Below, piece by piece: positions 58-11,695 of a stretch of 20,000 bases of DNA. How positions within the stretch are numbered: the stretch's first letter is position 1; every line of letters starts with the position of its first letter. The DNA is from an uncultured virus (IMG/VR IMGVR_UViG_3300031885_002559) (Duplodnaviria; Heunggongvirae; Uroviricota; Caudoviricetes). A model generated the notes under the pieces. That model was not told the DNA's origin. It saw only the letters and a program-made list of their open reading frames with translations, and searched no databases. The translations under genes were made by a program, and so were the position numbers. The stretch lies in the IMG/VR virus record IMGVR_UViG_3300031885_002559; one strand, given 5' to 3'.

Positions 58-618
58 CTATGCTCGCCGCAGCATGAACGGCTCCCAGTCCGGGTGCTTC
101 GGGGTAATCGTCAAGGCGACGATGACCTCCTTTGGCACAACGGGCTTGATGCGGAGCTTGAGACCGGCCTCTTCCGGCGTCCGGTTGGCCTTCCGGTGGT
201 TGATGTCCTTCCGGCTCCAGACAAGGTTGGTCCACGTGTTTCCGCCACCCCGGCTGCGAGGCATGACGTGGTCGAGCGTGCCGTCCGGGGCGTACTCACC
301 CGTATACGCGCAGTGGTACTTGTCGCGCTTGGCAACACCCCGGCGGTCCAGCTTCGGGCGCGTCTTGGGCATCCCCTCGTAGGCCGTGACTACGACCGTA
401 GGAACACGGACCTGACGGTTGGTCGTGCGGATGCACACGTCAGTCTCGCGGATCGGCAAGGCAATCCACGTCTCCCACGTACACGCCAGCATGGTCGTCG
501 TGTCGATGGCGCGCTTCTGGCCCCGGCAGATGTCGCACAAAGCCGTGCCAACGTCGGTTTCAGCAATCGCCTGCCAGCCAGCGTTCAGCACGAGCACTTT
601 TCGTGTGAGCAGTTCCAT
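58..618 (-). CDS. HNH endonuclease (McrA-like)
   Basis: VLVLNAGW N-terminus; RDKYHCAY and TLDHVMPRSRGGGNTWTNLV...NHRKANRTPEEAG HNH motifs. Confidence 0.9.
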   Translation of the reverse strand: MELLTRKVLVLNAGWQAIAETDVGTALCDICRGQKRAIDTTTMLACTWETWIALPIRETDVCIRTTNRQVRVPTVVVTAYEGMPKTRPKLDRRGVAKRDKYHCAYTGEYAPDGTLDHVMPRSRGGGNTWTNLVWSRKDINHRKANRTPEEAGLKLRIKPVVPKEVIVALTITPKHPDWEPFMLRRA

Positions 619-650: not shown

Positions 651-995
651 GTGCGCGAACGCGAGTACGACATCAAGCAGGAGATTTTCAGGCTAATATC
701 GCCTGCTGCCGGGCGCGCACGGATGCGAAACCGGTGGGAATACGTCTGCTGGCTCCACGACAAGGGCCTCGACTTCGCGCACATTGGTCGTCTGATCGAC
801 CGGCACGAGACCACGGCCAAGCGCCTATGGAAGCGCGGCACGAAGGAGAGGATGGTCCCGGCGGTCGGGGTTGCACCGACACTCGACGGGTCAAAGCCGT
901 CACGTGCTACTGTTACACCACGCCGGAAAATGGTACCGCCAGCCGGGGACGATCCGGCAACCCTCCGGTTAAAAGCCGGATGCTCTGCCTGTTGA
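651..995 (+). CDS. Small putative HTH protein
   Basis: GTG at 651 follows a GTTCT motif; KGLDFAHIGRLIDRHETTAKRLW resembles an HTH; the C-terminal part is antisense to two tRNAs. Confidence 0.45.
   Translation: MREREYDIKQEIFRLISPAAGRARMRNRWEYVCWLHDKGLDFAHIGRLIDRHETTAKRLWKRGTKERMVPAVGVAPTLDGSKPSRATVTPRRKMVPPAGDDPATLRLKAGCSAC
853..927 (-). tRNA. tRNA-Gln(TTG)
   Basis: Cloverleaf, anticodon loop CTTTGAC, encoded CCA. Confidence 0.9.
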
Positions 996-1006
996 GCTAT
1001 GGCGGT
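931..1006 (-). tRNA. tRNA-Lys(TTT)
   Basis: Cloverleaf, loop CTTTTAA, CCA. Confidence 0.9.
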
Positions 1007-1012
1007 ATACGG

Positions 1013-1096
1013 TGGTCGTCGCGGGGAGACTTGCACTCCCAAGGCTCTCAGGCTCTCGACCTGAACCCTCTGCTATTCGGGCTTAACCACGCGACG
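1013..1096 (-). tRNA. Atypical tRNA-Leu(GAG), 84 nt
   Basis: 7-bp acceptor, 8-nt connector, loop TCGAGAG, short variable region, CCA. Confidence 0.75.
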
Positions 1097-1115
1097 GAAA
1101 GCTGTTCTACGGACT

Positions 1116-1616
1116 GTGCCCGTACACCAAAGAAGGCCAGACCTCATCAACGAGGCAAACATCGCTGAAAGCAGCAGGGTCTACTGGAAACATCACGGTA
1201 TTCTGCTAGTACCCATCAAGGCTGACGAAATGGCCGAGACAGACATCGTGTGGCTTTCAGGCCAGTACGCGGGCCTTGTAAACGAGTGTAAGTGCCGTTT
1301 CCGTGTTAAAGTCACCGACTACGATTTGCTGATCGACAAAAAGAAGATCAACGCAGGCATCAAAGAGGCAGAACGCCTTAACGTCAGATTCTTGTTAACA
1401 ATCTGGTGGGGAGCCCAAAACGGTATTGGCGACGACGTAGCGTGGGCACGCTGGATCGACCGAGACGAGGCGAGTAAGTTCAAGGTGGTCCTGTGGGGAC
1501 GAAACGATGAACGCGACGACAACGACATAGACCCCTCGTACAGCATACCTACTCACACTTTCACCATAGCGATTCCAATGCTCTACGAGAGGCTGCGATC
1601 ACCCGCATCTACGTGA
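1116..1616 (+). CDS. Putative PD-(D/E)XK nuclease
   Basis: TDIVW...NECKCR fits the D...ExK pattern; 166 aa; GTG start after a GTTCT motif. Confidence 0.6.
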   Translation: MPVHQRRPDLINEANIAESSRVYWKHHGILLVPIKADEMAETDIVWLSGQYAGLVNECKCRFRVKVTDYDLLIDKKKINAGIKEAERLNVRFLLTIWWGAQNGIGDDVAWARWIDRDEASKFKVVLWGRNDERDDNDIDPSYSIPTHTFTIAIPMLYERLRSPAST

Positions 1617-1621
1617 CCGCA

Positions 1622-1676
1622 CGCCGCTTAGCACGCGACGAAAAAGAAAATGGTGCCCGCCGCTTAGCACGCGACG
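1622..1676. repeat. 19-bp direct repeat CGCCGCTTAGCACGCGACG (1622-1640, 1658-1676)
   Basis: Exact duplication; each copy forms a hairpin with a GTGCTAA loop on the minus strand. Confidence 0.9.
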
Positions 1677-1682
1677 GGCACC
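1641..1682 (-). terminator. Intrinsic terminator
   Basis: GGTGCCCGTCGC-loop-GCGGCGGGCACC followed by ATTTTCTTTTT. Confidence 0.8.
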
Positions 1683-1960
1683 GGTATCAAACGGAGCTTT
1701 TTAGCTTTGAAATCGAACAAGCACGAAACTTTGAGCTTGATCCTGATGCTCTACCGCTGAGCTACCCGCTCAAAACCAAAACCGTGAAAGTGGCGAGCGG
1801 GATGGGATTTGAACCCACGACCTCAGTTTAAGTTGTTTCGTCTCGCAGATTTCCTTCCGCCTGCGTTGTTGAGCCTTCGGGTGATAGCCTGATCTTTAGC
1901 CTGAATCTGACGATTACCCTGAGCTTGGACAGGACTGCCTTACGACAGCCCCACCCGAAA
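1683..1960 (-). ncRNA. Unassigned ncRNA with a permuted tRNA module (1743-1826) and hexamer tracts
   Basis: T arm, 3' acceptor strand and GCCA come before a 19-nt linker, the 5' acceptor strand and the D arm; TTCGGGTG/CACCCGAA helix encloses seven in-phase hexamers. Confidence 0.7.
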
Positions 1961-2725
1961 TCAAACCTGACCGTTGAAGATGTAGCGCAGCAGATGCGCG
2001 CCGATCTTCTTGAAGAGGTCCACCTCTGTCTCGTTGGCCCGCGAGCGCGCTCGACGGACAGAGCGCAGCAGGATTTCCGAGCGTTCCAGCAGCTCCGCCT
2101 TCTCGGCGGGCGTGACCAACCCCGACCACTCTTGCTCGTGGATCGTACCAACCGGCACGTCCACGGTCAGCATCTCAGTCTGAGCCGGGTGCTCCTTGGT
2201 GGCGTCGTACTTGATGACGACCCGCACGTCCTTCTTGGTGCGGGTCTTCACAACCTCACGCGCCCGGTAGATGTGCTCGCCGCGCTCCGGGTCCGCTGTG
2301 AAACCCTTGGCTGGGTCCAGCGTGGGCACGGCGTGAACGAGCGCGTGAATCTCCGCGATGCGCTTTTCCAGTTCGAGCAGAGCAGTTGCCGGAACGTCCT
2401 TGACCAGCACGGTCCCCGCGTCGTCGTCGAGAATGATGTCGGCGCGAGCCACGGTGTTGGCTTCAGCCACCTGAAACGACGCGTCCAGCGCCTTCTGGAG
2501 AAAAGCGCTGATCCACTTCAGCTCCTTGCGAACAGTCGATTGGATGTCCGACTGCCCCTCGGTGACGGCGGGCTTGCCCTCTTCCGAGGGAACGAACAGA
2601 ACGCGCTTTTCTTCAAACAGGTGGCGCTTCTTTTCAAAGGTAGCGGCCAAGTCGGTACGCGTCTTGGTCGCCTGTGTTTCGAGATTGGTCTCAACGGCCA
2701 GTAGTTCGTGGAGTCGTGTTGGCAT
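1961..2725 (-). CDS. Hypothetical helical/coiled-coil protein
   Basis: 254-aa ORF with protein-like composition and its own upstream promoter-like motif. Confidence 0.85.
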   Translation of the reverse strand: MPTRLHELLAVETNLETQATKTRTDLAATFEKKRHLFEEKRVLFVPSEEGKPAVTEGQSDIQSTVRKELKWISAFLQKALDASFQVAEANTVARADIILDDDAGTVLVKDVPATALLELEKRIAEIHALVHAVPTLDPAKGFTADPERGEHIYRAREVVKTRTKKDVRVVIKYDATKEHPAQTEMLTVDVPVGTIHEQEWSGLVTPAEKAELLERSEILLRSVRRARSRANETEVDLFKKIGAHLLRYIFNGQV

Positions 2726-2735
2726 ATCTGTGCGT

Positions 2736-2763
2736 AGCGTATACTTGTTGATGGTTTCGTCAA
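2736..2763 (-). promoter_or_regulatory. Putative sigma70-type promoter
   Basis: TTGACG-N16-TACGCT; same TTGAC-N14-GTATACG spacing as 6216-6243. Confidence 0.5.
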
Positions 2764-2782
2764 CAGAAAAACTCGGTCAAAG

Positions 2783-3325
2783 TCACCGCCGCCTAAACCT
2801 ATCGACGTAAACGGGAATCCGTGTTGGTGGTTTCACAGGCTCTTGTGAGACTTGTGGAACAGAATTGGTAGTCACCTGCTCAGGCGGTTTTGCTTTTAGC
2901 AGACGCCGTTTTCCCACTTCTTTGACGGCGATGACCTCTTTCGTCGCGCAATTCTCCGCCGCAGCTTCTTCTGCGGTCTCAAAGACAAGCTTGGCCCCGT
3001 TAGCTCGAACTACGATCCAGAACTTTCGCGCTTGGACAAGCACACCCGTTTTGCTGGGAACGTAAGCCGTCACGTCCCAGACAAGCGCTTTCATCTCCGT
3101 GATCGAGCACTCGCGCTCGCCTACGACTTCAATCACGCGCAGAGTCTCAAGTTCAGCAAAGCGCGGGCGAATACTGTCGATTTGGTAACCAGCCAGCGCG
3201 CTGGCAACTTCGTGCGCTGTCAGTGGGCCGTGGTGAAATAGGTGTGCGTATACACTCCAGCGCAATCCGGTCAGCAGTCCTGAGTCTTCAATTTTTGCGT
3301 ATGCTTCAGCACTGGTGTTGCGCAT
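2783..3325 (-). CDS. Putative winged-helix DNA-binding protein
   Basis: HGPLTAHEVASAL...SIRPRFAELE...GERECSIT pattern typical of phage wHTH proteins. Confidence 0.7.
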   Translation of the reverse strand: MRNTSAEAYAKIEDSGLLTGLRWSVYAHLFHHGPLTAHEVASALAGYQIDSIRPRFAELETLRVIEVVGERECSITEMKALVWDVTAYVPSKTGVLVQARKFWIVVRANGAKLVFETAEEAAAENCATKEVIAVKEVGKRRLLKAKPPEQVTTNSVPQVSQEPVKPPTRIPVYVDRFRRR

Positions 3326-3339
3326 ACCACTATAGAACG

Positions 3340-3372
3340 TGGTTGACCCGGTCGGCTACGATCCGACAACCT
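3340..3372 (-). pseudogene. Orphan tRNA 3' half
   Basis: AGGTT GTCGG ATCGTAG CCGAC CGGGTCA ACCA with no 5' half. Confidence 0.7.
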
Positions 3373-3448
3373 TGGTGGGCCTTGTGGGACTCAAACCCAC
3401 GGTCTATCGCTTATGAGGCGATTGCTTTAGTCGCTAAGCTAAAAGCCC
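3373..3448 (-). tRNA. tRNA with CAT anticodon (probably Ile2)
   Basis: Loop CTCATAA, GGGCTTT acceptor, A73; Ile2 versus Met is inferred. Confidence 0.8.
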
Positions 3449-3454
3449 AGAAAA

Positions 3455-3545
3455 TGGCGGAAGGCAGTGGACATCATCCACACCCCGGTTTAGCGGAGCC
3501 GTCGGTTTAGCAAACCGCGATAGCACGCTGGCTATTTTACCTTCC
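3455..3545 (-). tRNA. tRNA-Ser(GCT), 8/4 fold
   Basis: 8-bp acceptor GGAAGGTA/TGCCTTCC, 4-bp T stem, long variable arm, G73. Confidence 0.8.
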
Positions 3546-3551
3546 GTATAC

Positions 3552-3585
3552 AAAAGGCGGCTGGCCAGTTTCCCAGCCAGCCGCC
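3552..3585 (-). terminator. Terminator after the Ro60 gene
   Basis: GGCGGCTGGCTGG/CTGGCCAGCCGCC hairpin followed by TTTT. Confidence 0.75.
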
Positions 3586-3605
3586 GTTGGGCCTGTAGGC
3601 CGCAG

Positions 3606-5288
3606 CTATTCGTCAGCCACAGTCTCTTCGGCCTTGGCTGCCGCGTCACCACGGATGAAGTTCGCGATGATCGGCGGGGCCGACGCATCGAAACCTACGA
3701 CATCCAGACCGAACTTGTCGGTCGGATCGTTGACGGTGAAGTCGTTCGCGCACGTAGCCACGAAGACCGACCGGGCATCCCGTACGAACTTCTGCCGGTA
3801 CTCGCGCAGCGCCTGAGCCGGGTGGCGACCGCAGTTGACCTCACCGTCGGTCATGCAGATGAAGCCACCGACCTCCAGCTTGTTCTGGAGCGCGTACTGG
3901 AATGCCAGCGAGATGTCCGTCGAACCGAAGTTCGAGCGTAACGCCCGGTTCATCGCGTCGTCGAGCGACATACCCTTGCGGATACCCAGCTCCACGAACT
4001 GATGCGCAAACCCGAAGACGTGGCACTCTGGCTCCACGCTCAGGTGAATGAGCGACAAGGCCGCCGTTGCCTCGCACGAGCGAAGCACCGAGCCAGCGAT
4101 CTGGCTGCCCATCGAGCCTGAAACATCCAGAGCGATGAGCACCGGCTTGCCGCAGGGTACGACGTTCGGAAACGCCGCGTAGAAGGCTTGGTCAAGGTCC
4201 GCTAGGATCGACGGGACCGGGGTCCACGTGAGATCGCCCTTGATGCCACGGCCCTGCCCGTATACGCGGTGAGCGACCAGCACCGCCATCGGGTGAATGC
4301 GCGACTTCCGCAGGTACGCTGCGTCAGTCAGTCGGTTCCGCACCAGTTTGGCCGCTGCCGACAGCGGCTTCACCAGCCCGATGGAGGTCATCTTGCCGAG
4401 GTTACGGATCAGGGCCGTAAGCGGCATCTTCTGAAGCAGAGCCTCCCAGACGGCGAGGCTGTTCAGGTGCTGCGTCGGGATCGCCTCCCGAGGGAGGTTG
4501 CTCTCGACGATGAGTTCGATGACCCGCTTCTCGGAAGCCGTCTTGGCCTCCTCGAACGCCTTGATCAACTCGGGCAGGTAACGCGTGCGCGACGGGTACT
4601 TCGCGACGGTCTCCTTGGCCTTCCGCTTGACCTCCCGCGCACCCAGCACACCCATGCCGCCAACCATCCAGCGCAGAACCGAGTCCTGCGCGGCGGAGGC
4701 CGCCTTCGGATGAGCCAGACGCAGGATGTCTGCGTGGGTCCAACCGTCACGCTGCTGGTACTTGATCGCCTGAAAGGCCAACTGGTCAGCCTCCCGAGAC
4801 GTGTACCAGCCGCTGGCTGCCCGGCAGATAGCTCGTCCCCATCCACGCAGCGCGTTGATGTACTGCGCGAAGTGGAACAGGTGCGTGCCGATACGGCAAA
4901 CCTTGGGGAGTGCCGCTGCCGCTGCCGCCTTGGCTGCCGTGTCACCGTGGGTGAGCGCCAGCGCCAGAGCGAAGATGGCCGGGTCATTGCGGTACGCAAG
5001 GCCCTTGTCGGAGACCTCAGTGATCCGCTTGACGGCCCGAACACCGTCAGCCTTGATGCAGCGTACGGTCGCGCCGTGCTTCTGCTTCAGGAGTTCCGGC
5101 TCCTTGATGTAGTACGTGCCCTTCTCGACCCCGAGGATCAGGAAGCGGTCAAGGTTTGCCCAGTCATCGACCTGCCAGACAAATCCGCCGTCGGAATCCG
5201 GCACCATGTCGGTGCGGCCCGGCAGAGGCTGGGTAACCGGCGTGTTGGTGGCGCGCCGGTTGAACTGCGTCATGTTGATGGTTGCCAT
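3606..5288 (-). CDS. rsr: Ro60/Rsr RNA-binding protein (TROVE + vWA)
   Basis: LDRFLILG, KYQQRDGWTHADILRLAHP, MPLTALIRNLG, SRIHP motifs; vWA MIDAS DVSGSM; 560 aa. Confidence 0.95.
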   Translation of the reverse strand: MATINMTQFNRRATNTPVTQPLPGRTDMVPDSDGGFVWQVDDWANLDRFLILGVEKGTYYIKEPELLKQKHGATVRCIKADGVRAVKRITEVSDKGLAYRNDPAIFALALALTHGDTAAKAAAAAALPKVCRIGTHLFHFAQYINALRGWGRAICRAASGWYTSREADQLAFQAIKYQQRDGWTHADILRLAHPKAASAAQDSVLRWMVGGMGVLGAREVKRKAKETVAKYPSRTRYLPELIKAFEEAKTASEKRVIELIVESNLPREAIPTQHLNSLAVWEALLQKMPLTALIRNLGKMTSIGLVKPLSAAAKLVRNRLTDAAYLRKSRIHPMAVLVAHRVYGQGRGIKGDLTWTPVPSILADLDQAFYAAFPNVVPCGKPVLIALDVSGSMGSQIAGSVLRSCEATAALSLIHLSVEPECHVFGFAHQFVELGIRKGMSLDDAMNRALRSNFGSTDISLAFQYALQNKLEVGGFICMTDGEVNCGRHPAQALREYRQKFVRDARSVFVATCANDFTVNDPTDKFGLDVVGFDASAPPIIANFIRGDAAAKAEETVADE

Positions 5289-5370
5289 AGGTAATGGCAG
5301 TCGTACTTCCCGTATACGTTATCGGGTTTTCACCGCTGGCTGCTGCTACAGCCTGATGGTTTTTGACAGT

Positions 5371-5396
5371 CGTCCAGCAAGGGAATCGGCCAGACG
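5371..5396 (-). promoter_or_regulatory. Minimal Y-RNA-like hairpin in the rsr leader
   Basis: CGTCTGGCCGA-TTC-CCTTGCTGGACG reproduces the GCCGA/CTTGC stem of the Y RNAs. Confidence 0.55.
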
Positions 5397-5428
5397 AAAG
5401 CGACGAAGAGAAGAACACGAAAGAAGAA

Positions 5429-5559
5429 TGGCGAGCAAAGAGACGCAGTCGGAAATGCTGACCGCTGTGCTACCGCTACACCAACTCCCGGTGTTCGGGA
5501 GCCAAGGAGTCGAACCTTGTCCAACGGTTCCGATGATAACCAACTACTACGGCTCGCCA
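5429..5559 (-). ncRNA. yrlA: Y RNA, YrlA type
   Basis: Terminal stem TGGCGAGC/GCTCGCCA; T arm, then looped acceptor-like stem, then D arm; next to the Ro60 gene. Confidence 0.85.
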
Positions 5560-5562
5560 AAG

Positions 5563-6015
5563 TGGTGGAGGCGAGGGGAATCGAACCCCTGTCCTTATGC
5601 GCCTTGCGACGCGTTCACATGCTTCCCCGATTTTGACCAGTAGACTGGAGCCAGACCGGGAACTGCTCTCAGCCGGTGCGGTGAAGACCACCGCCGGTCA
5701 GCGCCGACTTGTTCGCTCGGCACCCAGACTAACCTGCTGTCGTCGGTCGGCCCAGCCTAGCAGGCGTCAGTTGGCGACCGTCGCACGGCGTTTAGGCCGC
5801 AGCGAGTTCCAGAACCTCGGTCTCTTCAAACTGAACGAGGATCGCATCCGGGTTGCGGATGATCTCCGTCGCTTCAGCGAGCAGGGACTCGATGTTCAGG
5901 GTATCAGTTGCTTCGTCAGCAGTTGATGTTTGCCTCGGGGTTTTACGTGGCCAACGAGACATCCACGGCATGTAGCGCACGGTCCAGCAACACAAGTCGA
6001 GACCTGTACGCCCCC
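5563..6015 (-). ncRNA. ssrA: tmRNA
   Basis: 5' GGGGGCG...CTCGAC; 3' T arm and CGCCTCCACCA with G3.U70; tag frame ends ELAAA-stop at 5792. Confidence 0.93.
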
Positions 6016-6121
6016 ATCAAAGAACGATCTGAAAATAGGCCCCGGATCACTCCGGGGTCGGGGCTGGCTGGTTCAACAGCCGCCATCCACCATTCCGCCG
6101 CACATACGGCGAAATCGAAAT

Positions 6122-6198
6122 TGGTTGCGGGAGCTGGATTTGAACCAGCGACCTCTTGGTTATGAGCCAAGCGAGCTTCCGGGCTGCTCCACCCCGCG
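6122..6198 (-). tRNA. tRNA-fMet(CAT)
   Basis: CGCGGGG start, C1:A72 mismatch, loop CTCATAA. Confidence 0.92.
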
Positions 6199-6215
6199 AT
6201 GCAAAGAACGCTGTT

Positions 6216-6243
6216 ACCGTATACCTGCGCGAATCTCTGTCAA
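6216..6243 (-). promoter_or_regulatory. Putative sigma70-type promoter for fMet/tmRNA/Y RNA/rsr
   Basis: TTGACA-N16-TACGGT. Confidence 0.5.
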
Positions 6244-6251
6244 CGAAAAGT

Positions 6252-6335
6252 TGGTCGGCGCGGAGGGACTTGCACCCTCAAGGCTGACGGATTTTGAATC
6301 CGTCCGGTCTGCTATTCCCTGTGAACCACGCGCCG
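6252..6335 (-). tRNA. Atypical tRNA-Leu(CAA), 84 nt
   Basis: Loop TTCAAAA; extended connector; short variable region. Confidence 0.8.
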
Positions 6336-6341
6336 ACTAGA

Positions 6342-6425
6342 TGGTGTCCGCACCGGGACTTGCACCCGGAAGGGGCGGGGGTTTAAGCCCCGTGGCTCTG
6401 CTGTTCGCGCTGACCCCATGCGGAC
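6342..6425 (-). tRNA. Atypical tRNA-Leu(TAA), 84 nt
   Basis: Loop CTTAAAC; extended connector. Confidence 0.8.
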
Positions 6426-6433
6426 GTATACAG

Positions 6434-6509
6434 TGGTCGCTCCAGTCGGGGTTGCACCGACAACCTCTGGTTCCTAAGACCAGCGCCTCTGCTATTGGGC
6501 TATGGAGCG
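6434..6509 (-). tRNA. tRNA-Leu(TAG), short variable loop
   Basis: 76-nt class-I cloverleaf, loop CTTAGGA. Confidence 0.85.
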
Positions 6510-6513
6510 AAGA

Positions 6514-6597
6514 TGGTCGCCACGAGACGAATTGCACGTCCAAGGCTCACTCCTTCTGAGGGAGGCCCGTCTGCTATTCCGGGTAAACCACGTGGCG
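6514..6597 (-). tRNA. Atypical tRNA-Leu(CAG), 84 nt
   Basis: Loop CTCAGAA; extended connector. Confidence 0.75.
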
Positions 6598-6607
6598 TAG
6601 TTAAGGC

Positions 6608-7444
6608 ATGGCAGCAATACACAAACACCGCAGCCTAGCAAAGTTTCGGCGCACGGATAATAGTCCTCATCACTGCATTGAATGCGGTAAACGTCATACC
6701 AACTACCCGTCAAAAATGTGCCAAGACTGTGAAGCGCGCAGGACAGAGACCGAGTTTCCACAGCATGACGTGCCGCCCTATTTTCCACAGCCGGACAGCG
6801 ATGACTTCGATGAGTCAGCCGCCAAGCGCATCGTGGCCGTCATGCTCGAAGACATCCCCTACGGTTCCGACGCCCCGGATCGCGCAGGTGGCCCGGATGA
6901 CCCTTGGCGCAAAGGCGGCATGAATCCCCTTGGGTCCATGCAGTTCTCCGGCCAGCGGGCCGGAGAACAAGTACCAGTGCCAGACGAAGGCCAAGAGGAT
7001 GGCTTTGAAGAGTTCGCTGAGCCCCTCCGCCAGCGTGGCAAGACCGACGACGAGATCATCGCGCTTTGGCAAGCCCATCAAACGGCAGGCCAAGAGCGCC
7101 CGACGGCTAGCCCGGCCCCGACCACGCAACCCGTACCCCCGACCCAGATGGGCCACTCTCGCTTCCAGTGGCGTCCTGAGTCACGCCGCGTAAGCGCCCG
7201 CGAGATGATCGAGCACTGTGGTCACTGCGCCAGCGATCCCGCCGTCAAACGCGGAGCCAAGGTCGAGAAAGAGCACACGCGCAATCCGAAGAAGGCGGCC
7301 AAGATCGCTCAGGACCACCTGAAGGAAAACCCGAAGTACTACCCGAAGACTCCGCCGCCCAAGGGGGCCAAAGAGCGGTTGGCGTATACCAAAGGGCCGA
7401 AGCCAAAGTACGCGTTCTACGCTGGCGCAACCGGGTCAACCTAG
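6608..7444 (+). CDS. Phage protein with N-terminal Zn finger and C-terminal DUF5661-like motif
   Basis: CIEC...CQDC; GAKVEKEHT...AKIAQDHLKENPKYY (family recalled, not searched). Confidence 0.75.
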   Translation: MAAIHKHRSLAKFRRTDNSPHHCIECGKRHTNYPSKMCQDCEARRTETEFPQHDVPPYFPQPDSDDFDESAAKRIVAVMLEDIPYGSDAPDRAGGPDDPWRKGGMNPLGSMQFSGQRAGEQVPVPDEGQEDGFEEFAEPLRQRGKTDDEIIALWQAHQTAGQERPTASPAPTTQPVPPTQMGHSRFQWRPESRRVSAREMIEHCGHCASDPAVKRGAKVEKEHTRNPKKAAKIAQDHLKENPKYYPKTPPPKGAKERLAYTKGPKPKYAFYAGATGST

Positions 7445-7445
7445 A

Positions 7446-7521
7446 TGGTACCCTCGGCTGGAGTCTCGCCAGCAACCTGCGGTTTCGAGGACCGCCGCTC
7501 TATAAATTGAGCTACGAGGGC
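7446..7521 (-). tRNA. tRNA-Arg(TCG)
   Basis: Loop CCTCGAA, cloverleaf, CCA. Confidence 0.85.
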
Positions 7522-7665
7522 ATGAAAGCCAAACAGATCATCGAAGCGATGCTGCCGTATCCAAAGCAGTTCGTCGCCAAAGCGAAGCCGTCTGTCCGTA
7601 CGACGTGGGCCAACAAGAAGCCAAAGGCGAAAGCGTGGTTCATGGGCTGGCGCGGGGGCGGGTAG
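7522..7665 (+). CDS. Small basic protein (47 aa)
   Basis: MKAKQIIEAMLPYPKQF...WRGGG fills the gap; not in the ORF track (<60 aa). Confidence 0.5.
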   Translation: MKAKQIIEAMLPYPKQFVAKAKPSVRTTWANKKPKAKAWFMGWRGGG

Positions 7666-7677
7666 TAGTTAGAGCGT

Positions 7678-8082
7678 ATGGCAAGTACGACGACCAACGG
7701 TGTGGTGCTTCAGGTGCCCTATGCGGTCATCCGCAACCCGGAGCGAACGCGGCCTTTCACGGCGAGCATCATCGGCCCCGACCCTCTGCGCGGCGGACAG
7801 AATACCCTGCGCGCATTCCCAACCGGGCCGATCACCCCGAGCAACCTCGTCACGCAGTACTTCACGTACGTCGGCGACAAAATCACGTGGACGCTTCAAG
7901 CTCCGTGCGTCGATCCGTCAGCCAAAGCGTTCGAGTTTGGACGCGTCAGCTTCACGACAGGCGTTGTGACGCTGGACTCCATCGTCAGCTTCACCGCCGC
8001 GTGGCAGCGACAGCTTGTCGTGACCGTAACCGCGATCAACGCAACGAGCGGAGCCGTCACGTACACGGTGGCCTACAGCTAA
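7678..8082 (+). CDS. Hypothetical beta-rich protein, possibly virion
   Basis: T/V/A-rich, 134 aa; GTAGTTA motif upstream. Confidence 0.75.
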   Translation: MASTTTNGVVLQVPYAVIRNPERTRPFTASIIGPDPLRGGQNTLRAFPTGPITPSNLVTQYFTYVGDKITWTLQAPCVDPSAKAFEFGRVSFTTGVVTLDSIVSFTAAWQRQLVVTVTAINATSGAVTYTVAYS

Positions 8083-8083
8083 A

Positions 8084-8158
8084 TGGTGCGGACGGCTGGT
8101 GCTGCCCCAGCGGCCTCCAGATTGTCGTTCTGGCGCTCTACTGCTGAGCTACGCCCGC
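8084..8158 (-). tRNA. tRNA-Val(GAC)
   Basis: Loop ACGACAA, cloverleaf, CCA. Confidence 0.85.
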
Positions 8159-8373
8159 AAACGCTTGGTCTTACCCGTCTTGAGGTCCACCCGCAGCCAC
8201 TCCTTTTTTGAGCGGCTGTAGATGCGCTCGATCCCACGCGACCGGGCCAAATCCACGACCTCGCGCTTGAAGCCGTGAACCTGTTTTCCGTTCGGCAACG
8301 TAATTGTATACGGTGCCTGCTGAACGCTCACGACGTTGCTGACAGGTTTCGCTAGACTCCAGTGCCATGCCAT
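8149..8373 (-). CDS. Small hypothetical protein
   Basis: Start moved to ATG 8373 (after a GTTCT motif); the longer call overlaps tRNA-Lys. Confidence 0.55.
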   Translation of the reverse strand: MAWHWSLAKPVSNVVSVQQAPYTITLPNGKQVHGFKREVVDLARSRGIERIYSRSKKEWLRVDLKTGKTKRLRA

Positions 8374-8460
8374 ACGCTCAAGAACTGGAGCCGAAGGCCG
8401 GTGCTGCCCCGGCTCGCCCAAGTTTACAAAACTCGGACCCATGCTGATGGCATCGGCAAA

Positions 8461-8535
8461 TGGTGGGTTGGGTGGGACTCGCACCCACAGCCTTCTGTTT
8501 AAGAGACAGATACTCTACTATTGAGTTACCAACCC
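8461..8535 (-). tRNA. tRNA-Lys(CTT)
   Basis: Loop CTCTTAA. Confidence 0.9.
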
Positions 8536-8540
8536 GAAAG

Positions 8541-8615
8541 TGGTCGCTGTGCCCGGACTCGCACCGGGAGCCTTCGCCTTATGAGGGCGTTGCGCTGCTA
8601 TTGCGCCACACAGCG
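8541..8615 (-). tRNA. tRNA-Met(CAT), probably elongator
   Basis: Loop CTCATAA, paired 1-72. Confidence 0.85.
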
Positions 8616-8620
8616 GAATC

Positions 8621-9715
8621 TTAAATGGTGTCGGTCCTGCCGACCGCCTGATTGTACAACAACTGCGAACTATTGCCTCCGAGATCAAGCCAGTCCGTTG
8701 AGACAGGAACGCCATCGGCAACATCGCTCATAGGGCAGTACACAACCAGCTCTCCCGGCTGAACCGTTAGTGGAAGATCGCGAACCGGAGCGCTCAGCGT
8801 CAGCACTTCTGCCGCGCTCAGCGCCTTTTTCCAGATCGCAACATCTGCGAGCCTGCCTGCGTAGTAGTCTGTGCCGAGCGCCATCGTCGCGGCTGCGATC
8901 CACCACCGCGTTCCGAACTTAACGATCTCGCCAACGGCCTTGGGAATGCCGTCAGCAGCGCCGCTGACATACAGGATGAGCGTGCTGTTTTCGAGGCACG
9001 TCAGCGCGACGTGTACCCAGACACCCGGTACGACTGGGACTAGGCCCGTAACGGTTGGGTTTATGCCATCATCTTGGACAAAGCCTTTGAAAACCGGCCC
9101 TTGTGCGAGCAGGAACGACACGGTATCCAGCGGGTCAGCAACGAGCGATCCCGTTCTGGCTGCAATGGCGCGGTATGTTGCTGCCTGCTGCGGCTTTACC
9201 CACGCGCTGATTGTGTACTCGCTCGGCTTAATCGCTGCTGATCCGTTATAGAAGGCCGTGCGCACAGAAGCTCCAACCGGAAAGTCATACACCAGATTAG
9301 CGGGGTCTGGCGGCGGCGGTCCCCCACCTCCTTGCTGACTACTAGCCACTCCACCGAGTGGCATGTAGGTCACGCCGAGCTTCTGCCCGCTCAGCAGCAC
9401 AGAGTTGCTGCCTGTACCGAGCTGATCATCGGTCTTGCCCGGCTCCGGCGTATACTTCACGCCGAGCTTTTGACCAGCCAGCAGTCGCGCATTGCTGCCT
9501 GTGCCCGGCTCGCCATCGGCCTTGCCCTGATTGGGAACGTATACAGTCGGGTTAGGCTTGCCTGACACGATGACCGTGTTGCTGCCTGTGCCGACGTTGC
9601 CGTCGCTCTTGGCTGGATTCGGAACGTACGTCATCGGCTTCGACTGCCCAGAAACAACTGCCGCGTTGCTGCCGGTACCGACTCGGTCTCCGATGATGGT
9701 TTGTGGCGCTGCCAT
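8621..9715 (-). CDS. LamG/concanavalin-like domain protein with four N-terminal ~29-aa repeats
   Basis: YTISAWVKP, WVHVALT, LYVSG, YAGRLADVAIWKKALSAAEV; four GTGSN repeats. Confidence 0.85.
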   Translation of the reverse strand: MAAPQTIIGDRVGTGSNAAVVSGQSKPMTYVPNPAKSDGNVGTGSNTVIVSGKPNPTVYVPNQGKADGEPGTGSNARLLAGQKLGVKYTPEPGKTDDQLGTGSNSVLLSGQKLGVTYMPLGGVASSQQGGGGPPPPDPANLVYDFPVGASVRTAFYNGSAAIKPSEYTISAWVKPQQAATYRAIAARTGSLVADPLDTVSFLLAQGPVFKGFVQDDGINPTVTGLVPVVPGVWVHVALTCLENSTLILYVSGAADGIPKAVGEIVKFGTRWWIAAATMALGTDYYAGRLADVAIWKKALSAAEVLTLSAPVRDLPLTVQPGELVVYCPMSDVADGVPVSTDWLDLGGNSSQLLYNQAVGRTDTI

Positions 9716-9737
9716 GCCCTAAATACGCCGAATGAAC

Positions 9738-9812
9738 TGGAGCCCCCGTGCGGATGTGCGCCGCACTCTCCCCGATACCAACGGGGTACATCGCTGTCTA
9801 TGCTTCAGGGGC
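9738..9812 (-). tRNA. tRNA-Thr(GGT)
   Basis: Loop TTGGTAT. Confidence 0.8.
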
Positions 9813-9815
9813 GAA

Positions 9816-9890
9816 TGGAGCGGCAGCCGGGTAGCGCGCCCGGTACTCTGGTTTGGAAGACCAGCGTGTATCTCTCAACACCTATGCCGC
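9816..9890 (-). tRNA. tRNA-Gly(TCC)
   Basis: Loop CTTCCAA, GCG start, U73. Confidence 0.85.
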
Positions 9891-9893
9891 AAA

Positions 9894-10220
9894 TCACTGA
9901 ACTTCACCGCTCTTGAGCCGGTCAAACATCGAGCGCGCAGGTGGAGGCGCTTGGGCTCCTTCAACGGGTCCGAGGTCTGGAACCCAGCCTTTTGGATTTG
10001 CGTCCTGTATGGCGACCAGCTCCGCGATCTGAGCATCCTCGTACCCCGTCCTCTTGGCCCACGCAATGAAGTGGCGTCGGCACTGGCTGTGCGACTTGCC
10101 AAATACCGGCGCGCCGTAGTGCTCGCGTTCGCAGTCGTGACAGGCGCGCTCTGGCGTACCAGACATCACGTCAGATTCAAGCAGGCGGTTGACTAGGTTT
10201 ACGGCTTGGGTCGAGGTCAT
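9894..10220 (-). CDS. Small Zn-finger-like protein, paralog of 10177-10455
   Basis: CHDCER...SHSQCRRH; start at ATG 10220 or GTG 10244. Confidence 0.7.
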   Translation of the reverse strand: MTSTQAVNLVNRLLESDVMSGTPERACHDCEREHYGAPVFGKSHSQCRRHFIAWAKRTGYEDAQIAELVAIQDANPKGWVPDLGPVEGAQAPPPARSMFDRLKSGEVQ

Positions 10221-10455
10221 GCCAGTATTGTCTTTTGCTTCCACGCTCGCTCACGTGTGCCTGCGCTTTTTCACGCGGCCAGTTTAGCGGCGCGTTCGTA
10301 TACATGTCAACCATGCAGCTCGGGCAGTAGCCGTGGCTCGGGCTTTCACCGGGCTCCATTTTGGCTGTCCCGTACTTGCGCTCGCAGGCTAAGCAGACGG
10401 GCACGGCGCTGGACTCCAAAAGGCGGTCAACGCATTGTTTGGCCAGACTTTTCAT
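10177..10455 (-). CDS. Small Zn-finger-like protein
   Basis: CLACER...SHGYCPSC; ATG 10455 follows a GTAGTTA motif. Confidence 0.75.
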   Translation of the reverse strand: MKSLAKQCVDRLLESSAVPVCLACERKYGTAKMEPGESPSHGYCPSCMVDMYTNAPLNWPREKAQAHVSERGSKRQYWHDLDPSRKPSQPPA

Positions 10456-10469
10456 CGCTCTAACTACAG

Positions 10470-10544
10470 TGGAGTCCGGCCAGAGGATCGCACTCTGCGC
10501 CACCGCTTTGCAGGCGGGGCCGTTCACTAGCTCGGTCGCCGGAC
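10470..10544 (-). tRNA. tRNA-Cys(GCA)
   Basis: Loop CTGCAAA, U73. Confidence 0.88.
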
Positions 10545-10548
10545 GTAA

Positions 10549-10623
10549 TGGGGTGGCCACGGAGGATCGCACTCCGACCGGCAGCTCCACAGGCTGCGGC
10601 TCTTCTACTTGAGCTATGGCCAC
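10549..10623 (-). tRNA. tRNA-His(GTG)
   Basis: Loop CTGTGGA, C73; position -1 is T. Confidence 0.88.
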
Positions 10624-10626
10624 ATC

Positions 10627-10701
10627 TGGAGCCTCCACACGGTACTGCCCCGTGTTCTTCGGTTTACGAAACCGACGCATCACTTCGTATGCTTTGGAGG
10701 C
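10627..10701 (-). tRNA. tRNA-Thr(CGT)
   Basis: Loop TTCGTAA. Confidence 0.85.
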
Positions 10702-10710
10702 AAATTGAAA

Positions 10711-10920
10711 GTCTCGCTGAAGCCGCCCGCTGCTCGGCAAGCCTCGCTCCCAATAGCCGTAGGTTTTCCGGTTCCCCCAGCTAATCGTAGCGGCGTTCTG
10801 CCCGGTGGAAGTCTCGATCAACCGCCGGGCCTATCAGCGAAATTGGCCAGTTCACTCTCATACTGGATCGCCCCGGCTGAGAGGACTCCTGATCAGGGAG
10901 GGGGCTTTTCTCGACGAGAC
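10711..10920 (-). ncRNA. Unassigned structured RNA (~210 nt)
   Basis: Closing stem GTCTCG/CGAGAC, AAGCC/GGCTT, several internal hairpins. Confidence 0.55.
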
Positions 10921-10941
10921 AGTGGTGGGAGGCAAAGGGTG

Positions 10942-11334: not shown

Positions 11335-11347
11335 ACCAATACAGAAC

Positions 11348-11421
11348 TGGTACCCCGTGACGGAATTGCACCGTCTCCATGAGTTTGTAGGACTCAGGCA
11401 CTACTGTTATGCAAACGGGGC
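11348..11421 (-). tRNA. tRNA-Val(TAC)
   Basis: Loop CCTACAA. Confidence 0.82.
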
Positions 11422-11439
11422 AGAGCTACGCTCCCAAAG

Positions 11440-11515
11440 TGGTATCCCCGGCAGGAATCACACCTGCGGCCTCCGCCTTCGCAGAGCGGCGCTCTATTGA
11501 CTGAGCTACGGGGAC
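11440..11515 (-). tRNA. tRNA-Arg(GCG)
   Basis: Loop CTGCGAA. Confidence 0.88.
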
Positions 11516-11529
11516 ATGGAAAGTTTGAA

Positions 11530-11679: not shown

Positions 11680-11695
11680 GAAGTCTCGCTCAAAA

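What the first reader, a model, noticed from the sequence alone, without database searches (positions are those of the whole stretch)
1013..6597. Four Leu-anticodon tRNAs with a non-standard fold: extra connector/variable-loop helix
Seen: the Leu GAG (1013-1096), CAA (6252-6335), TAA (6342-6425) and CAG (6514-6597) genes are all exactly 84 nt. They lack the long variable arm and have an 8-9 nt connector between acceptor and D stem instead of 2 nt. In three, connector GGTT can pair with variable-region AGCC. In the TAA gene both strands change together to GGGG/CCCC. All share the D loop AAYAGCAG. Leu(TAG) at 6434-6509 is a plain short-arm class-I tRNA. Established: bacterial tRNA-Leu is normally class II with a long variable arm. 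Inference: an additional 4-bp helix creates a different cloverleaf topology, which I cannot match to a described tRNA class.
Basis: partly seen in the sequence, partly recalled or inferred. Interest (0 to 1): 0.8.

Follow-up and report, generated by a model that had tools for sequence, protein, structure and literature searches.

The report
Leucine tRNAs with an extra helix
Four leucine tRNA genes in a phage-borne tRNA gene row belong to a large, apparently undescribed family that has swapped the usual long extra arm for a new four-base-pair helix, giving a fold that is not the standard cloverleaf.

Summary
Four 84-nt genes on the minus strand carry Leu anticodons, A73 and CCA. They have no long variable arm. 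A 4-bp helix ("helix X") joins nt 9-12 to nt 51-54. ARAGORN and the whole-window Rfam gathering run miss all four.

They are not a local oddity. I collected 182 distinct homologues from viral contigs, metagenomes and genome bins that are mostly labelled Verrucomicrobiota. By my automated parse, 179 of 182 have Leu anticodons, and 182 of 182 have A73.

Helix X is fully paired in 165 of 182. It occurs as 20 haplotypes, 10 of them fully complementary, for example GGUU/AGCC, GGAU/AUCC, GAAC/GUUC and the window's GGGG/CCCC. RNAalifold predicts the helix de novo.

The genes sit in mobile long tRNA arrays that share gene order with the window's array. In those arrays the same slots hold either this form or short-arm Leu tRNAs. 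The host genomes keep ordinary class II tRNA-Leu elsewhere.

My best reading (about 0.6) is that these are working Leu decoders charged by the host LeuRS. Four near-complete phages that carry them encode no LeuRS. Seven full-text searches found no description of the fold. Expression and charging are untested.

The parts
1013..1096 (-). tRNA-Leu(GAG), helix-X type, 84 nt. Helix X is window 1085-1088 paired with 1043-1046 (GGUU/AGCC). The anticodon loop is UCGAGAG, with C at position 33.
   Evidence: Read. Model R1 scores it 96.7 bits. ARAGORN and the Rfam gathering run miss it.
6252..6335 (-). tRNA-Leu(CAA), helix-X type, 84 nt. Helix X is window 6324-6327 paired with 6282-6285 (GGUU/AGCC).
   Evidence: R1 scores it 99.8 bits. 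Rfam tRNA gives 33.8 bits only in the small-region search.
6342..6425 (-). tRNA-Leu(UAA), helix-X type, 84 nt. Helix X is window 6414-6417 paired with 6372-6375 (GGGG/CCCC). There is no spacer between the anticodon stem and helix X. The D stem is weak, with only 2 standard pairs.
   Evidence: R1 scores it 72.5 bits. The nearest-neighbour model gives helix X 4.7 kcal/mol of stability here.
6514..6597 (-). tRNA-Leu(CAG), helix-X type, 84 nt. Helix X is window 6586-6589 paired with 6544-6547 (GGUU/AGCC). It can extend to 6 bp (GGUUUA/UGAGCC), which leaves a 4-bp anticodon stem.
   Evidence: The single-sequence minimum-energy fold is this 6-bp form. R1 scores it 96.1 bits.
6434..6509 (-). tRNA-Leu(UAG), 76 nt. 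It is a canonical cloverleaf with a 5-nt variable loop, but it has the same D loop (AAUAGCAGA) and T loop (UGCAACC) as the four genes above.
   Evidence: ARAGORN. Rfam 54.4 bits. Alignment.
853..18447 (-). Long tRNA gene array, all on one strand, with about 31-33 tRNA-like genes and a tmRNA. HNH and PD-(D/E)XK endonuclease genes, a Ro60/TROVE gene and other ORFs lie between the tRNA genes. The five Leu genes occupy the same slots as in chromosomal arrays of Verrucomicrobiota bins: after Arg(UCG), and before Gln(UUG).
   Evidence: Gene order compared with L388, L409, L417 and L418.
58..618 (-). HNH endonuclease gene directly downstream of tRNA-Gln(UUG). It is homologous to the HNH gene at the same place in a chromosomal array.
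   Evidence: Pfam HNH_4/HNH_5. 44% identity, E = 1e-46, to L417:10021-10704.

Best explanation
These are genuine, selectively maintained tRNA-Leu isoacceptor genes of a mobile long tRNA array, carried here by an uncultured phage-like element from sediment. They use a non-cloverleaf architecture.

The fold, in 84-nt numbering:
- acceptor stem 1-7/74-80, then U8
- helix X 9-12/51-54
- two linker nt 13-14
- D hairpin 15-18/29-32, closed by a G19.A28 mismatch, with loop GAAYAGCAGA
- anticodon arm 33-37/45-49, following the D hairpin with no spacer
- one spacer nt (50)
- U55-U56
- T arm 57-61/69-73 with loop UGCAAKU
- A81 (position 73 in standard numbering) and CCA

The usual four-way junction is thus replaced by two stacked three-way junctions.

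My structural reading is inferred, not shown. I think the D hairpin still stacks on the anticodon stem and docks on the T loop as in a normal tRNA. In a normal tRNA two single strands (8-9 and 44-48) run along the D stem. Here they are each lengthened and zipped into a short duplex lying beside it. That duplex takes the place of the lost variable arm in filling and bracing the core.

I think the host LeuRS charges these tRNAs. Bacterial LeuRS ignores the anticodon and uses A73 and the core and elbow. They would then decode all six Leu codons for the array or phage. They would form part of a spare tRNA set whose altered shape and elbow (A18/G55 in place of G18/U55) may keep it working when host tRNAs are damaged, depleted or targeted.
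For: SHOWN: it is a family.
- 166 distinct strict 84-mers came from motif scans that did not specify helix X.
- 182 distinct members remained after covariance-model searches. Their sources: 4 window, 26 viral, 90 metagenome, 62 genome bins.

SHOWN: tRNA-like constraint.
- On the 56-sequence seed, 95.5% of cells pair, against 64.7% in shuffles. 22 of 25 pairs show double changes.
- On 115 distinct metagenome rows the figures are 96.0% against 67.7%.

SHOWN: helix X.
- RNAalifold predicts it de novo.
- 165 of 182 are fully paired.
- 10 of 20 haplotypes are fully complementary: GGUU/AGCC 140, GGCU/AGCC 8, GGAU/AUCC 7, GGAC/GUCC 3, GGGU/ACCU 2, and GAAC/GUUC, GGGG/CCCC, GGUC/GACU, GGUU/AGUC and GACC/GGUU once each.
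- Shuffles reached this in 33 of 20000 trials.

SHOWN: Leu identity signals.
- Anticodons are CAA 53, CAG 50, UAA 28, UAG 26, GAG 21 and AAG 1, which is 179 of 182.
- A73 is present in 182 of 182 and CCA in 176 of 182.

SHOWN: descent from ordinary tRNA-Leu. Housekeeping class II Leu(UAG) genes in the same Verrucomicrobiota genomes are also 82-84 nt. Their D loop is GAAUGGCAGA and their T loop UUCAAGU. They therefore differ from the array form in the loops only by G18 to A18 and U55 to G55.

SHOWN: interchangeability. In arrays with the same gene order, the Leu slots hold either helix-X or short-arm Leu genes.

SHOWN: mobility.
- Helix-X genes occur in 1 of 151 genomes sampled across the phylum, and that one is the query genome itself. 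They occur in 6 of 101 genomes sampled in one family.
- The array in G003 sits among integrase, HNH, RtcB, HipA, restriction-modification and AbiEii genes.
- The HNH gene is shared with the window.

SHOWN: no phage LeuRS. None of 5 phage records carrying the family has one, and 4 of them are at least 94% complete. The control search rang in 14 of 14 genomes.

FROM THE LITERATURE (passages read).
[quoted passage not shown] That array is linked to an HNH endonuclease and rtcB (PMC8421152).
- A bacterial LeuRS can charge a short-arm tRNA-Leu in Streptomyces (PMC6614811).

INFERRED: the 3D arrangement. I base it on the invariance of U8, the D-loop A20/A21 (standard 14/15) and U55/U56 (standard 47/48), and on the zero-nt D-to-anticodon junction.
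Against: No expression, processing, modification or charging data exist. No RNA run holding the sequence is listed.

Single-sequence thermodynamics barely favour helix X. It contributes 0.2-0.7 kcal/mol in three genes and 4.7 in the UAA gene. The minimum-energy fold contains helix X only for the CAG gene.

Helix X is strongly conserved as GGUU/AGCC (140 of 182), so most sequences say nothing for or against pairing. 13 of 182 have one mismatch and 4 have two or more. Some of those are offsets of my anchoring or truncated genes.

The sequences are related, so counts are not independent events. The model-derived alignments lean towards the model. R-scape was not available.

The outer two D-hairpin pairs form in only about 78% of sequences. 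The window's UAA gene has just two standard D-stem pairs.

All 21 GAG-type members have C33 instead of the near-universal U33. The elbow lacks G18 and U55. Either feature might impair ordinary translation.

The sample is therefore biased and incomplete.
Confidence: 0.6

Rival explanations
1. They are non-decoding tRNA mimics. On this view these stable tRNA-shaped RNAs act as decoys or cofactors, for example by soaking up a tRNA-Leu-directed toxin or nuclease, or by binding LeuRS or Ro60. They would not deliver leucine at the ribosome.
For: The elbow is non-canonical (A18/G55) and the GAG type has C33. The array neighbours include Ro60/TROVE in the window and RtcB, HipA and AbiEii in G003. An earlier unchecked scan note, e1-5318453, read another remodelled Leu tRNA in a phage array as a mimic.
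Against: A decoy has no need to keep a full set of six different Leu anticodons in well-formed 7-nt loops (179 of 182). It also has no need to occupy the very slots that ordinary short-arm Leu tRNAs fill in sister arrays. The window's array has no other Leu genes within the 20 kb. A73, CCA and the 7/5 acceptor-T geometry are all intact.
Confidence: 0.12
2. Helix X does not form in the functional molecule. On this view the RNA folds as a short-arm cloverleaf with long single-stranded connectors, and GGUU and AGCC are conserved for other reasons such as protein contacts or base triples.
For: GGUU/AGCC is nearly invariant (140 of 182). The energy gain is small. Three haplotypes have a C.A at 11:52, and others carry single mismatches.
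Against: There are ten different fully complementary haplotypes. Several change two to four positions on both strands, for example GAAC/GUUC, GGGG/CCCC and GACC/GGUU. In seven of eight such double variants, the variant's own partner pairs better than the consensus partner would. RNAalifold recovers the helix. C.A can be isosteric with the U.G it replaces; that point is my own knowledge, not a call result.
Confidence: 0.08
3. They are charged by an enzyme other than LeuRS, or they serve a recoding of Leu codons in the phage or array context.
For: The loss of the variable arm and the altered elbow change features that some synthetases read. Allo-tRNAs with Leu anticodons but Ser identity are a precedent (PMC5389517, abstract and review passages).
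Against: A73 is invariant. The D loop is one base away from the host's own tRNA-Leu. There is no long arm for SerRS. No G3:U70 or other foreign identity mark stood out in the alignments. No extra LeuRS-like gene was found in 5 phage records. I did not search for other synthetases.
Confidence: 0.05
4. They are decaying pseudogenes of array tRNAs.
For: Some array copies are clearly damaged. Examples are the 91-92-nt versions with insertions in the T arm in G004 and truncated or chimeric copies. Three of 26 Anabaena array genes are pseudogenes (PMC8421152).
Against: Compensatory changes occur in every helix across 182 distinct sequences from many samples. That is the signature of purifying selection on structure.
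Confidence: 0.03

Closest known systems
Canonical bacterial class II tRNA-Leu, for example the housekeeping tRNA-Leu(UAG) of the same Verrucomicrobiota genomes (L395, L401, L402, L415)
   Same: Length (82-84 nt), A73, CCA, 7/5 acceptor-T branch, U8, and a D loop identical except for one base (GAAUGGCAGA against GAAYAGCAGA). Both have a U before the T stem and Leu anticodons.
   Different: The class II form has a 12-13-nt variable-arm hairpin, a one-nt 9 connector, a 3-bp D stem, a residue 26, and the G18/U55 elbow. The helix-X form has none of these. Instead it has a 4-bp connector/variable-region helix, a 4-bp D hairpin joined directly to the anticodon stem, and A18/G55.
Short-arm ('type I') tRNA-Leu: Streptomyces coelicolor tRNA-Leu(CAA), mitochondrial tRNA-Leu, and the short-arm Leu genes of long tRNA arrays
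   Same: None has a long variable arm. In arrays the two forms occupy the same slots and share the variant D and T loops. A bacterial LeuRS can charge a type I tRNA-Leu (PMC6614811, passages).
   Different: Type I tRNA-Leu keeps the standard cloverleaf (2-nt connector, 4-5-nt variable loop, four-way junction), and ARAGORN and Rfam find it. The helix-X form adds 5 connector nt and 2 variable-region nt that pair with each other, and the finders miss it.
[quoted passage not shown] PCC 7120 trn operon and the Acidithiobacillus arrays
   Same: Dozens of same-strand tRNA genes that cover most amino acids. Distribution is sporadic and horizontal. They are linked with HNH homing endonucleases and RtcB and occur in phages and chromosomes (PMC8421152 and PMC4758250, passages).
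   Different: The passages I read of those papers describe no tRNA with an altered junction topology. Their supplements were not read.
Allo-tRNAs (8/4 and 9/3 acceptor/T configurations) and tRNA-Sec
   Same: These are natural non-canonical bacterial tRNA architectures found mostly in metagenomes, and some carry Leu anticodons (PMC5389517 abstract; PMC7609411 passages).
   Different: Allo-tRNAs change the acceptor/T stem lengths and keep a long variable arm with Ser identity. The helix-X form keeps 7/5, loses the arm and changes the junction.
tRNA-Pyl and mitochondrial tRNA-Ser(UCN)
   Same: Both have altered connector and variable-loop lengths around the D stem. This point is recalled, not tested here.
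   Different: Those shorten the connectors (one nt between acceptor and D stem, 3-nt variable loop). This form lengthens both and pairs them.

Membership tests
Canonical cloverleaf tRNA (Rfam RF00005; ARAGORN model) | 7-bp acceptor stem, discriminator base, 3' CCA position | tested here: met
   Each acceptor pair forms in at least 162 of 166 sequences. A73 is present in 166 of 166 and 182 of 182, and CCA in 176 of 182.
Canonical cloverleaf tRNA (Rfam RF00005; ARAGORN model) | 5-bp T stem with a 7-nt loop, and 5-bp anticodon stem with a 7-nt loop and U33 | tested here: inconclusive
   T-arm pairs form in at least 164 of 166. The anticodon arm is present, but pair 33:49 forms in only 133 of 166, with CAG types using a 4-bp stem. 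All 21 GAG types have C33.
Canonical cloverleaf tRNA (Rfam RF00005; ARAGORN model) | Two-nt connector (8-9), 4-5-nt or hairpin variable region, single four-way (or five-way) junction | tested here: not met
   The connector is 7 nt and the variable region 7 nt. Four nt of each pair with the other.
Canonical cloverleaf tRNA (Rfam RF00005; ARAGORN model) | Conserved elbow: G18 G19 in the D loop, T54-U55-C56 in the T loop | tested here: not met
   The D loop is GAAYAGCAGA with no GG. The T loop is UGCAAKU in 166 of 166. This was partly imposed by the search pattern.
Canonical cloverleaf tRNA (Rfam RF00005; ARAGORN model) | Detection at the curated threshold | tested here: not met
   ARAGORN finds 0 of 4. 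Rfam gathering on the whole window finds 0 of 4. The small-region search finds 1 of 3, the CAA gene at 33.8 bits.
Class II bacterial tRNA-Leu | Long variable arm (10 nt or more, with a stem) | tested here: not met
   6-7 nt lie between the anticodon stem and the T stem, with no hairpin.
Class II bacterial tRNA-Leu | A73 and core tertiary elements (U8:A14, A15:U48) used by bacterial LeuRS | tested here: inconclusive
   The bases are present and invariant: U8 in 165 of 166, the D-loop AA, and UU before the T stem. Their pairing cannot be tested with these tools.
Type I (short-arm) tRNA-Leu | Standard cloverleaf with a 4-5-nt variable loop | tested here: not met
   Not met by the four genes. Met by Leu(UAG) at 6434-6509.
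Long tRNA gene array (L-array; tRNA array unit) | At least 20 tRNA genes in one orientation; Tran et al. also ask for at least 2 genes per kb | tested here: inconclusive
   The window has 31-33 tRNA-like genes, all on the minus strand, over 17.6 kb. That is about 1.9 per kb, just under the density rule, because ORFs are interspersed. The sister array L418 has 21 genes in 6.8 kb.
Long tRNA gene array (L-array; tRNA array unit) | Sporadic, horizontally spread distribution; link with homing endonucleases | tested here: met
   Found in 1 of 151 genomes in the phylum sample and 6 of 101 in the family sample. HNH genes occur in the window and in G003 and are homologous.
Allo-tRNA | 12-bp acceptor branch split 8/4 or 9/3, long variable arm | tested here: not met
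   The split is 7/5 and there is no long arm.

The most novel reading that the evidence does not exclude
A natural, translationally active tRNA exists whose core is not a cloverleaf but two stacked three-way junctions. It belongs to a mobile, parallel tRNA set in which the elbow has been systematically rewritten: A18:G55 in place of G18:U55, plus other matched D-loop/T-loop changes across many isotypes. As a result the set escapes host enzymes or defence nucleases that read the standard tRNA shape, while the ribosome, EF-Tu, RNase P and the host LeuRS still accept it.
Probability: 0.3. Interest if true: 0.9.

Novelty: new variant of a known kind. Interest (0 to 1): 0.74.

Why it matters
[quoted passage not shown] A widespread natural family with a different junction topology would be a direct counter-example, if it is charged and used.

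It would show how much of the tRNA core the ribosome, EF-Tu, RNase P, the CCA enzyme and LeuRS can tolerate. It would also give synthetic biology a ready-made compact Leu scaffold that may be orthogonal.

There is a practical side. ARAGORN and the Rfam gathering run miss these genes. Phage and array tRNA complements, and 'missing tRNA-Leu' calls, are therefore likely to be wrong wherever the family occurs.

The array-wide rewriting of the elbow points to a selective pressure on tRNA shape in phage-host conflict that could now be tested.

Tried and rejected
- **Own genome.** None is held for this window, so host and full tRNA complement could not be read directly.
- **First DNA pattern.** It was too loose. 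Nearly all of its 119 loci were chance matches in coding DNA, and I dropped L001-L119 from all counts. L115 was a true member that the tighter pattern found again.
- **Deposited phages and plasmids.** There was no match to the CAA gene at E up to 0.001. A 2-kb query hit only tRNA-Met genes in the rows shown.
- **RNA evidence.** No RNA holder is listed.
- **Phylum-wide housekeeping trait of Verrucomicrobiota.** I rejected this. Helix-X genes were found in 1 of 151 sampled genomes, and the host genomes keep class II Leu genes. In the big samples only 30-45 candidates per genome were scored, under stricter filters, so weak members may be missed.
- **Phage-encoded LeuRS as partner.** Not found in 5 records.
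- **6-bp anticodon stem through 32:50.** I rejected this as the general rule. 32:50 pairs in 72 of 166 sequences, against 130 of 166 for 15:32.
- **Intron or permuted tRNA.** I considered this and dropped it. The extra nt are split between two sites that pair with each other, and no splice-type motif was seen. This is my reading of the alignments, not a dedicated test.
- **Y RNA next to the Ro60 gene.** Rfam finds nothing at E up to 1 in 3300-6100 apart from the tmRNA and a tRNA.
- **Papers.** Seven full-text searches found no description of this fold. The library holds open-access papers and bioRxiv only. No supplements were read.

Full report
**What is in the window.** Read on the minus strand, 1013-1096, 6252-6335, 6342-6425 and 6514-6597 are each 84 nt. 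Each has a 7-bp acceptor stem, A73 and an encoded CCA. Each has a 5-bp T stem with the loop UGCAAKU, and a 7-nt anticodon loop carrying GAG, CAA, UAA or CAG. Only 6-7 nt lie between the anticodon stem and the T stem, so there is no long variable arm. After U8 comes GGUU (GGGG in the UAA gene). It is complementary to AGCC (CCCC) just before the two U's that precede the T stem. All four genes and the 76-nt Leu(UAG) gene at 6434-6509 share the D loop AAYAGCAGA. ARAGORN reports 23 tRNAs but none of the four. Rfam at gathering score on the whole window reports 24 tRNAs and a tmRNA but none of the four. A small-region search rescues only the CAA gene, at 33.8 bits, by treating the extra nucleotides as a D-loop insertion. 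A motif pattern made only of the D-loop and T-loop words plus ACCA hits the window five times, against none in 200 shuffles.

**Context.** The window is a one-strand array of about 31-33 tRNA-like genes over 17.6 kb, with a tmRNA at 5563-6015. Between the tRNA genes lie phage-type genes:
- HNH and PD-(D/E)XK endonucleases
- a Ro60/TROVE protein
- a tubulin/TubZ-like protein
- a lectin-fold protein that matches a virion structural family

No whole genome is held for the window. DNA runs holding the sequence are sediment metagenomes.

**A family, not an oddity.** My first pattern was too loose and gave almost only chance hits. A tighter pattern specified the D-loop and T-loop words, the UU and ACCA, but nothing in helix X or any stem.
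- It found 21 loci in viral contigs.
- It gave 286 distinct matching stretches. Of these, 233 had the 84-nt spacing, and 201 passed a simple acceptor and T-stem check, giving 166 distinct 84-mers.

From 56 diverse members I built a covariance model with the proposed structure. I searched three sets with it:
- the window plus 20 viral loci
- 77 of the 123 genome loci
- 100 of the 123 metagenome loci

L241-L263 and L344-L386 were not searched with the model. I then pooled the hits and defined the family by its long connector, not by pairing. That gave 182 distinct sequences: 4 window, 26 viral, 90 metagenome, 62 genome. Their lengths are 84 nt (153), 85 (23) and 82-86 (6). By my automated parse the anticodons are CAA 53, CAG 50, UAA 28, UAG 26, GAG 21 and AAG 1. 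Three parses gave non-Leu triplets, which are probably register errors. A73 is present in 182 of 182 and CCA in 176 of 182.

**The fold.** Mutual information on the 166 ungapped 84-mers recovers the acceptor, T and anticodon stems. It also recovers a D hairpin at 15-18/29-32 that abuts the anticodon stem. On the 56-sequence seed, RNAalifold predicts 9-12/51-54, 15-18/29-32, a 4-bp anticodon stem and the two outer stems, with no structure supplied.

| Alignment | Cells paired | Shuffled | Slid by one column | Pairs with double changes |
|---|---|---|---|---|
| 56-sequence seed | 95.5% | 64.7% | 49-51% | 22 of 25 |
| 115 distinct metagenome rows | 96.0% | 67.7% | not quoted | not quoted |

The second alignment was fitted to the model, so it leans towards the structure.

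Helix X itself is highly conserved, with GGUU/AGCC in 140 of 182, so most sequences are uninformative. The informative ones agree with pairing.
- 165 of 182 are fully paired.
- There are 20 haplotypes, and 10 are fully complementary: GGCU/AGCC, GGAU/AUCC, GGAC/GUCC, GGGU/ACCU, GAAC/GUUC, GGGG/CCCC (the window's UAA gene), GGUC/GACU, GGUU/AGUC and GACC/GGUU, besides the consensus.
- Dealing the 3' strands among the haplotypes reached ten complementary pairs in 33 of 20000 trials. No trial reached the observed 64 of 80 paired cells.
- Three haplotype members have C.A where the consensus has U.G.
- In CAG-type genes, two more pairs (13:50 and 14:49) lengthen helix X to 6 bp and shorten the anticodon stem to 4 bp. 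For the window's CAG gene that form is the minimum-energy fold.

Thermodynamics alone is weak support. Helix X adds 0.2-0.7 kcal/mol in three genes and 4.7 in the UAA gene. The other three minimum-energy folds differ from the proposed structure.

**Where the family lives.** Forty-five genome loci have model hits of at least 79 bits. By my reading of the record titles:
- 37 are labelled Verrucomicrobiota (various ranks, including two bins labelled Akkermansia)
- 3 are labelled 'uncultured bacterium'
- 5 carry other names

All are metagenome bins.

Five such genomes were searched whole. In them the helix-X genes lie inside dense chromosomal tRNA arrays. Ordinary class II tRNA-Leu(UAG) genes sit alone elsewhere. 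Those housekeeping genes have the D loop GAAUGGCAGA and the T loop UUCAAGU. In the loops, the array form therefore differs by exactly G18 to A18 and U55 to G55.

The arrays share the window's gene order: Gly-Ala ... Pro-Arg-Asn ... Phe-Arg ... Arg(UCG)-Leu(CAG)-Leu(UAA)-Leu(CAA) ... Leu(GAG)-Gln(UUG). In that order the Leu slots hold helix-X genes in some arrays (G003, G004, the window). In others (G001, G005) they hold 75-77-nt short-arm Leu genes. Some phages also carry class II Leu genes with the variant loops, for example L121:2582-2665 and L135:2732-2816.

The family is sporadic. It was found in 1 of 151 genomes sampled across the phylum, and that one is the query genome itself. It was found in 6 of 101 genomes sampled within one family. 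In those runs only 30-45 candidates per genome were scored, under stricter filters. The G003 array contains an RtcB ligase gene. It is flanked by an integrase, HipA, a restriction-modification pair, AbiEii and an HNH gene. The HNH gene after Gln(UUG) is 44% identical (E = 1e-46) to the one at the same place in the window.

This matches the published picture of long tRNA arrays. They are horizontally spread, linked to homing endonucleases and rtcB, and known in Verrucomicrobia among other phyla (PMC8421152 and PMC4758250, passages).

**How it probably works.** Shown so far: the genes are under tRNA-like structural selection. They keep all Leu anticodons, A73 and CCA. They replace or alternate with ordinary short-arm Leu genes in arrays. 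Four near-complete phage genomes that carry them encode no LeuRS (0 of 5 records; the control rang in 14 of 14).

Inferred from this: the host LeuRS charges them and they decode Leu codons. Bacterial LeuRS uses A73 and core and elbow features, not the anticodon or the arm; that rests on established knowledge and the passages in PMC6614811. Two precedents bear on it. [quoted passage not shown] A Streptomyces LeuRS charges a short-arm tRNA-Leu.

My structural model is inference only. Several facts argue for a normal D-on-anticodon stack and a normal top of the core:
- The D hairpin joins the anticodon stem with no spacer.
- U8 is invariant.
- The D-loop A's at standard positions 14 and 15 are invariant.
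- The UU at standard positions 47 and 48 is invariant.

On this model helix X is the two connector strands, each lengthened and zipped together, lying beside the D stem where the variable arm would start.

The alternative is that helix X stacks on the anticodon stem through the continuous 3' strand. In that case it would stand in for the D stem (4 + 5 or 6 + 4 layers). I cannot exclude this.

**Rivals.**
- A non-decoding mimic is made unlikely by the complete anticodon set and the slot equivalence.
- An unpaired-connector model is contradicted by the compensated haplotypes.
- Charging by another enzyme has no positive evidence.
- Pseudogenes exist among the copies but cannot explain the covariation.

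**Novelty.** Seven full-text searches found no tRNA with a connector/variable-region helix. Nor did the passages I read of these four papers:
- the review of non-canonical tRNAs (PMC7609411)
- the tRNAscan-SE 2.0 paper (PMC8450103)
- the 4-bp anticodon-stem survey (PMC13092985)
- the array papers

Subscription journals and supplements were not covered.

Two earlier, unchecked notes of this scan bear on it. One (e1-3129678) says armless Leu tRNAs are the norm in cyanobacterial arrays and many phages. That agrees with the short-arm genes seen here, including a Cyanosarcina hit with the same loops (L319). The other (e1-5318453) reports a different remodelled Leu tRNA in a giant-phage array. Neither describes this fold, and a look-up by sequence found nothing.

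I rate it a new variant of a known kind. It is a tRNA, and almost certainly a tRNA-Leu, but with a junction topology I cannot match to any described class.

**Limits.**
Counts are lower bounds and the sample is biased toward close relatives.
- The sequences are related, so counts are not independent events.
- No R-scape, 3D modelling or tRNAscan-SE run was possible, and there are no RNA data.

Noticed in passing
window 853-18447 (all array tRNAs); also L417, L418, L120-L140: The elbow is rewritten across the whole array, not only in Leu. I examined 190 distinct ARAGORN tRNAs from these arrays and phages. T loops starting TGC (G55) go with D loops lacking GG (54, against 16 with GG). TTC goes with GG (62, against 2). 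Some window genes suggest matched 19:56 changes: T loop TGTGA with D loop ..AATAG.., and TGAAA with ..TTTATAG... Three have ATCGT, an apparent swap of the 54:58 pair.
   Followed up: partly
window 1013-1096 and all 21 GAG-type family members; window 8084-8158: Every helix-X tRNA-Leu(GAG) has C at position 33 (loop UCGAGAR) instead of the near-universal U33. A Val(GAC)-like gene in the window also reads ACGACAA.
   Followed up: partly
window 8084-8158, 11348-11421, 13846-13924, 14614-14688, 15194-15282, 16904-16994 (all minus strand): ARAGORN misses six further tRNA-like genes. Four of them Rfam finds; two only my model finds, at 38 and 19 bits. By my reading their anticodons are Val(GAC), Val(UAC), Glu(UUC), Ile(GAU), class II Ser(CGA) and class II Tyr(GUA). 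Two have the odd T loop GGCAGCA.
   Followed up: partly
window 3606-5288 (-) and 5563-6015 (-): A Ro60/TROVE plus vWA protein gene sits between tRNA genes, next to a tmRNA gene. Rfam finds no Y RNA nearby at E up to 1. An undetected Y-like RNA in 5289-5562 or 3449-3605 remains possible.
   Followed up: partly
window 11789-12916 (+): A tubulin/FtsZ/TubZ-like GTPase gene lies inside the tRNA array, on the opposite strand. It is reminiscent of large-phage tubulins.
   Followed up: no
L388:1844-1930, L409:1169-1255 and L409:1669-1760: The chromosomal sister arrays hold an 87-nt tRNA-Thr and a 92-nt tRNA-Ile(UAU) that have long variable arms. The Leu genes of the same arrays have lost theirs.
   Followed up: no
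L417:14697-15827 (-): An RtcB RNA ligase gene sits inside the G003 tRNA array. An integrase, HipA, a restriction-modification pair and AbiEii lie next to it. This echoes the rtcB link reported for the Anabaena array.
   Followed up: partly
L387:1614-1705 and L387:542-632: Two helix-X Leu copies in the G004 array are 91-92 nt, with an insertion in the T-arm region. They may be damaged copies or a further structural variant.
   Followed up: no
L121:2501-2577 (same sequence in L122, L124): A 77-nt Leu(CAA) form has the variant loops, a 6-bp anticodon stem and only a 4-nt variable region. It may be intermediate between the short-arm and helix-X forms.
   Followed up: no
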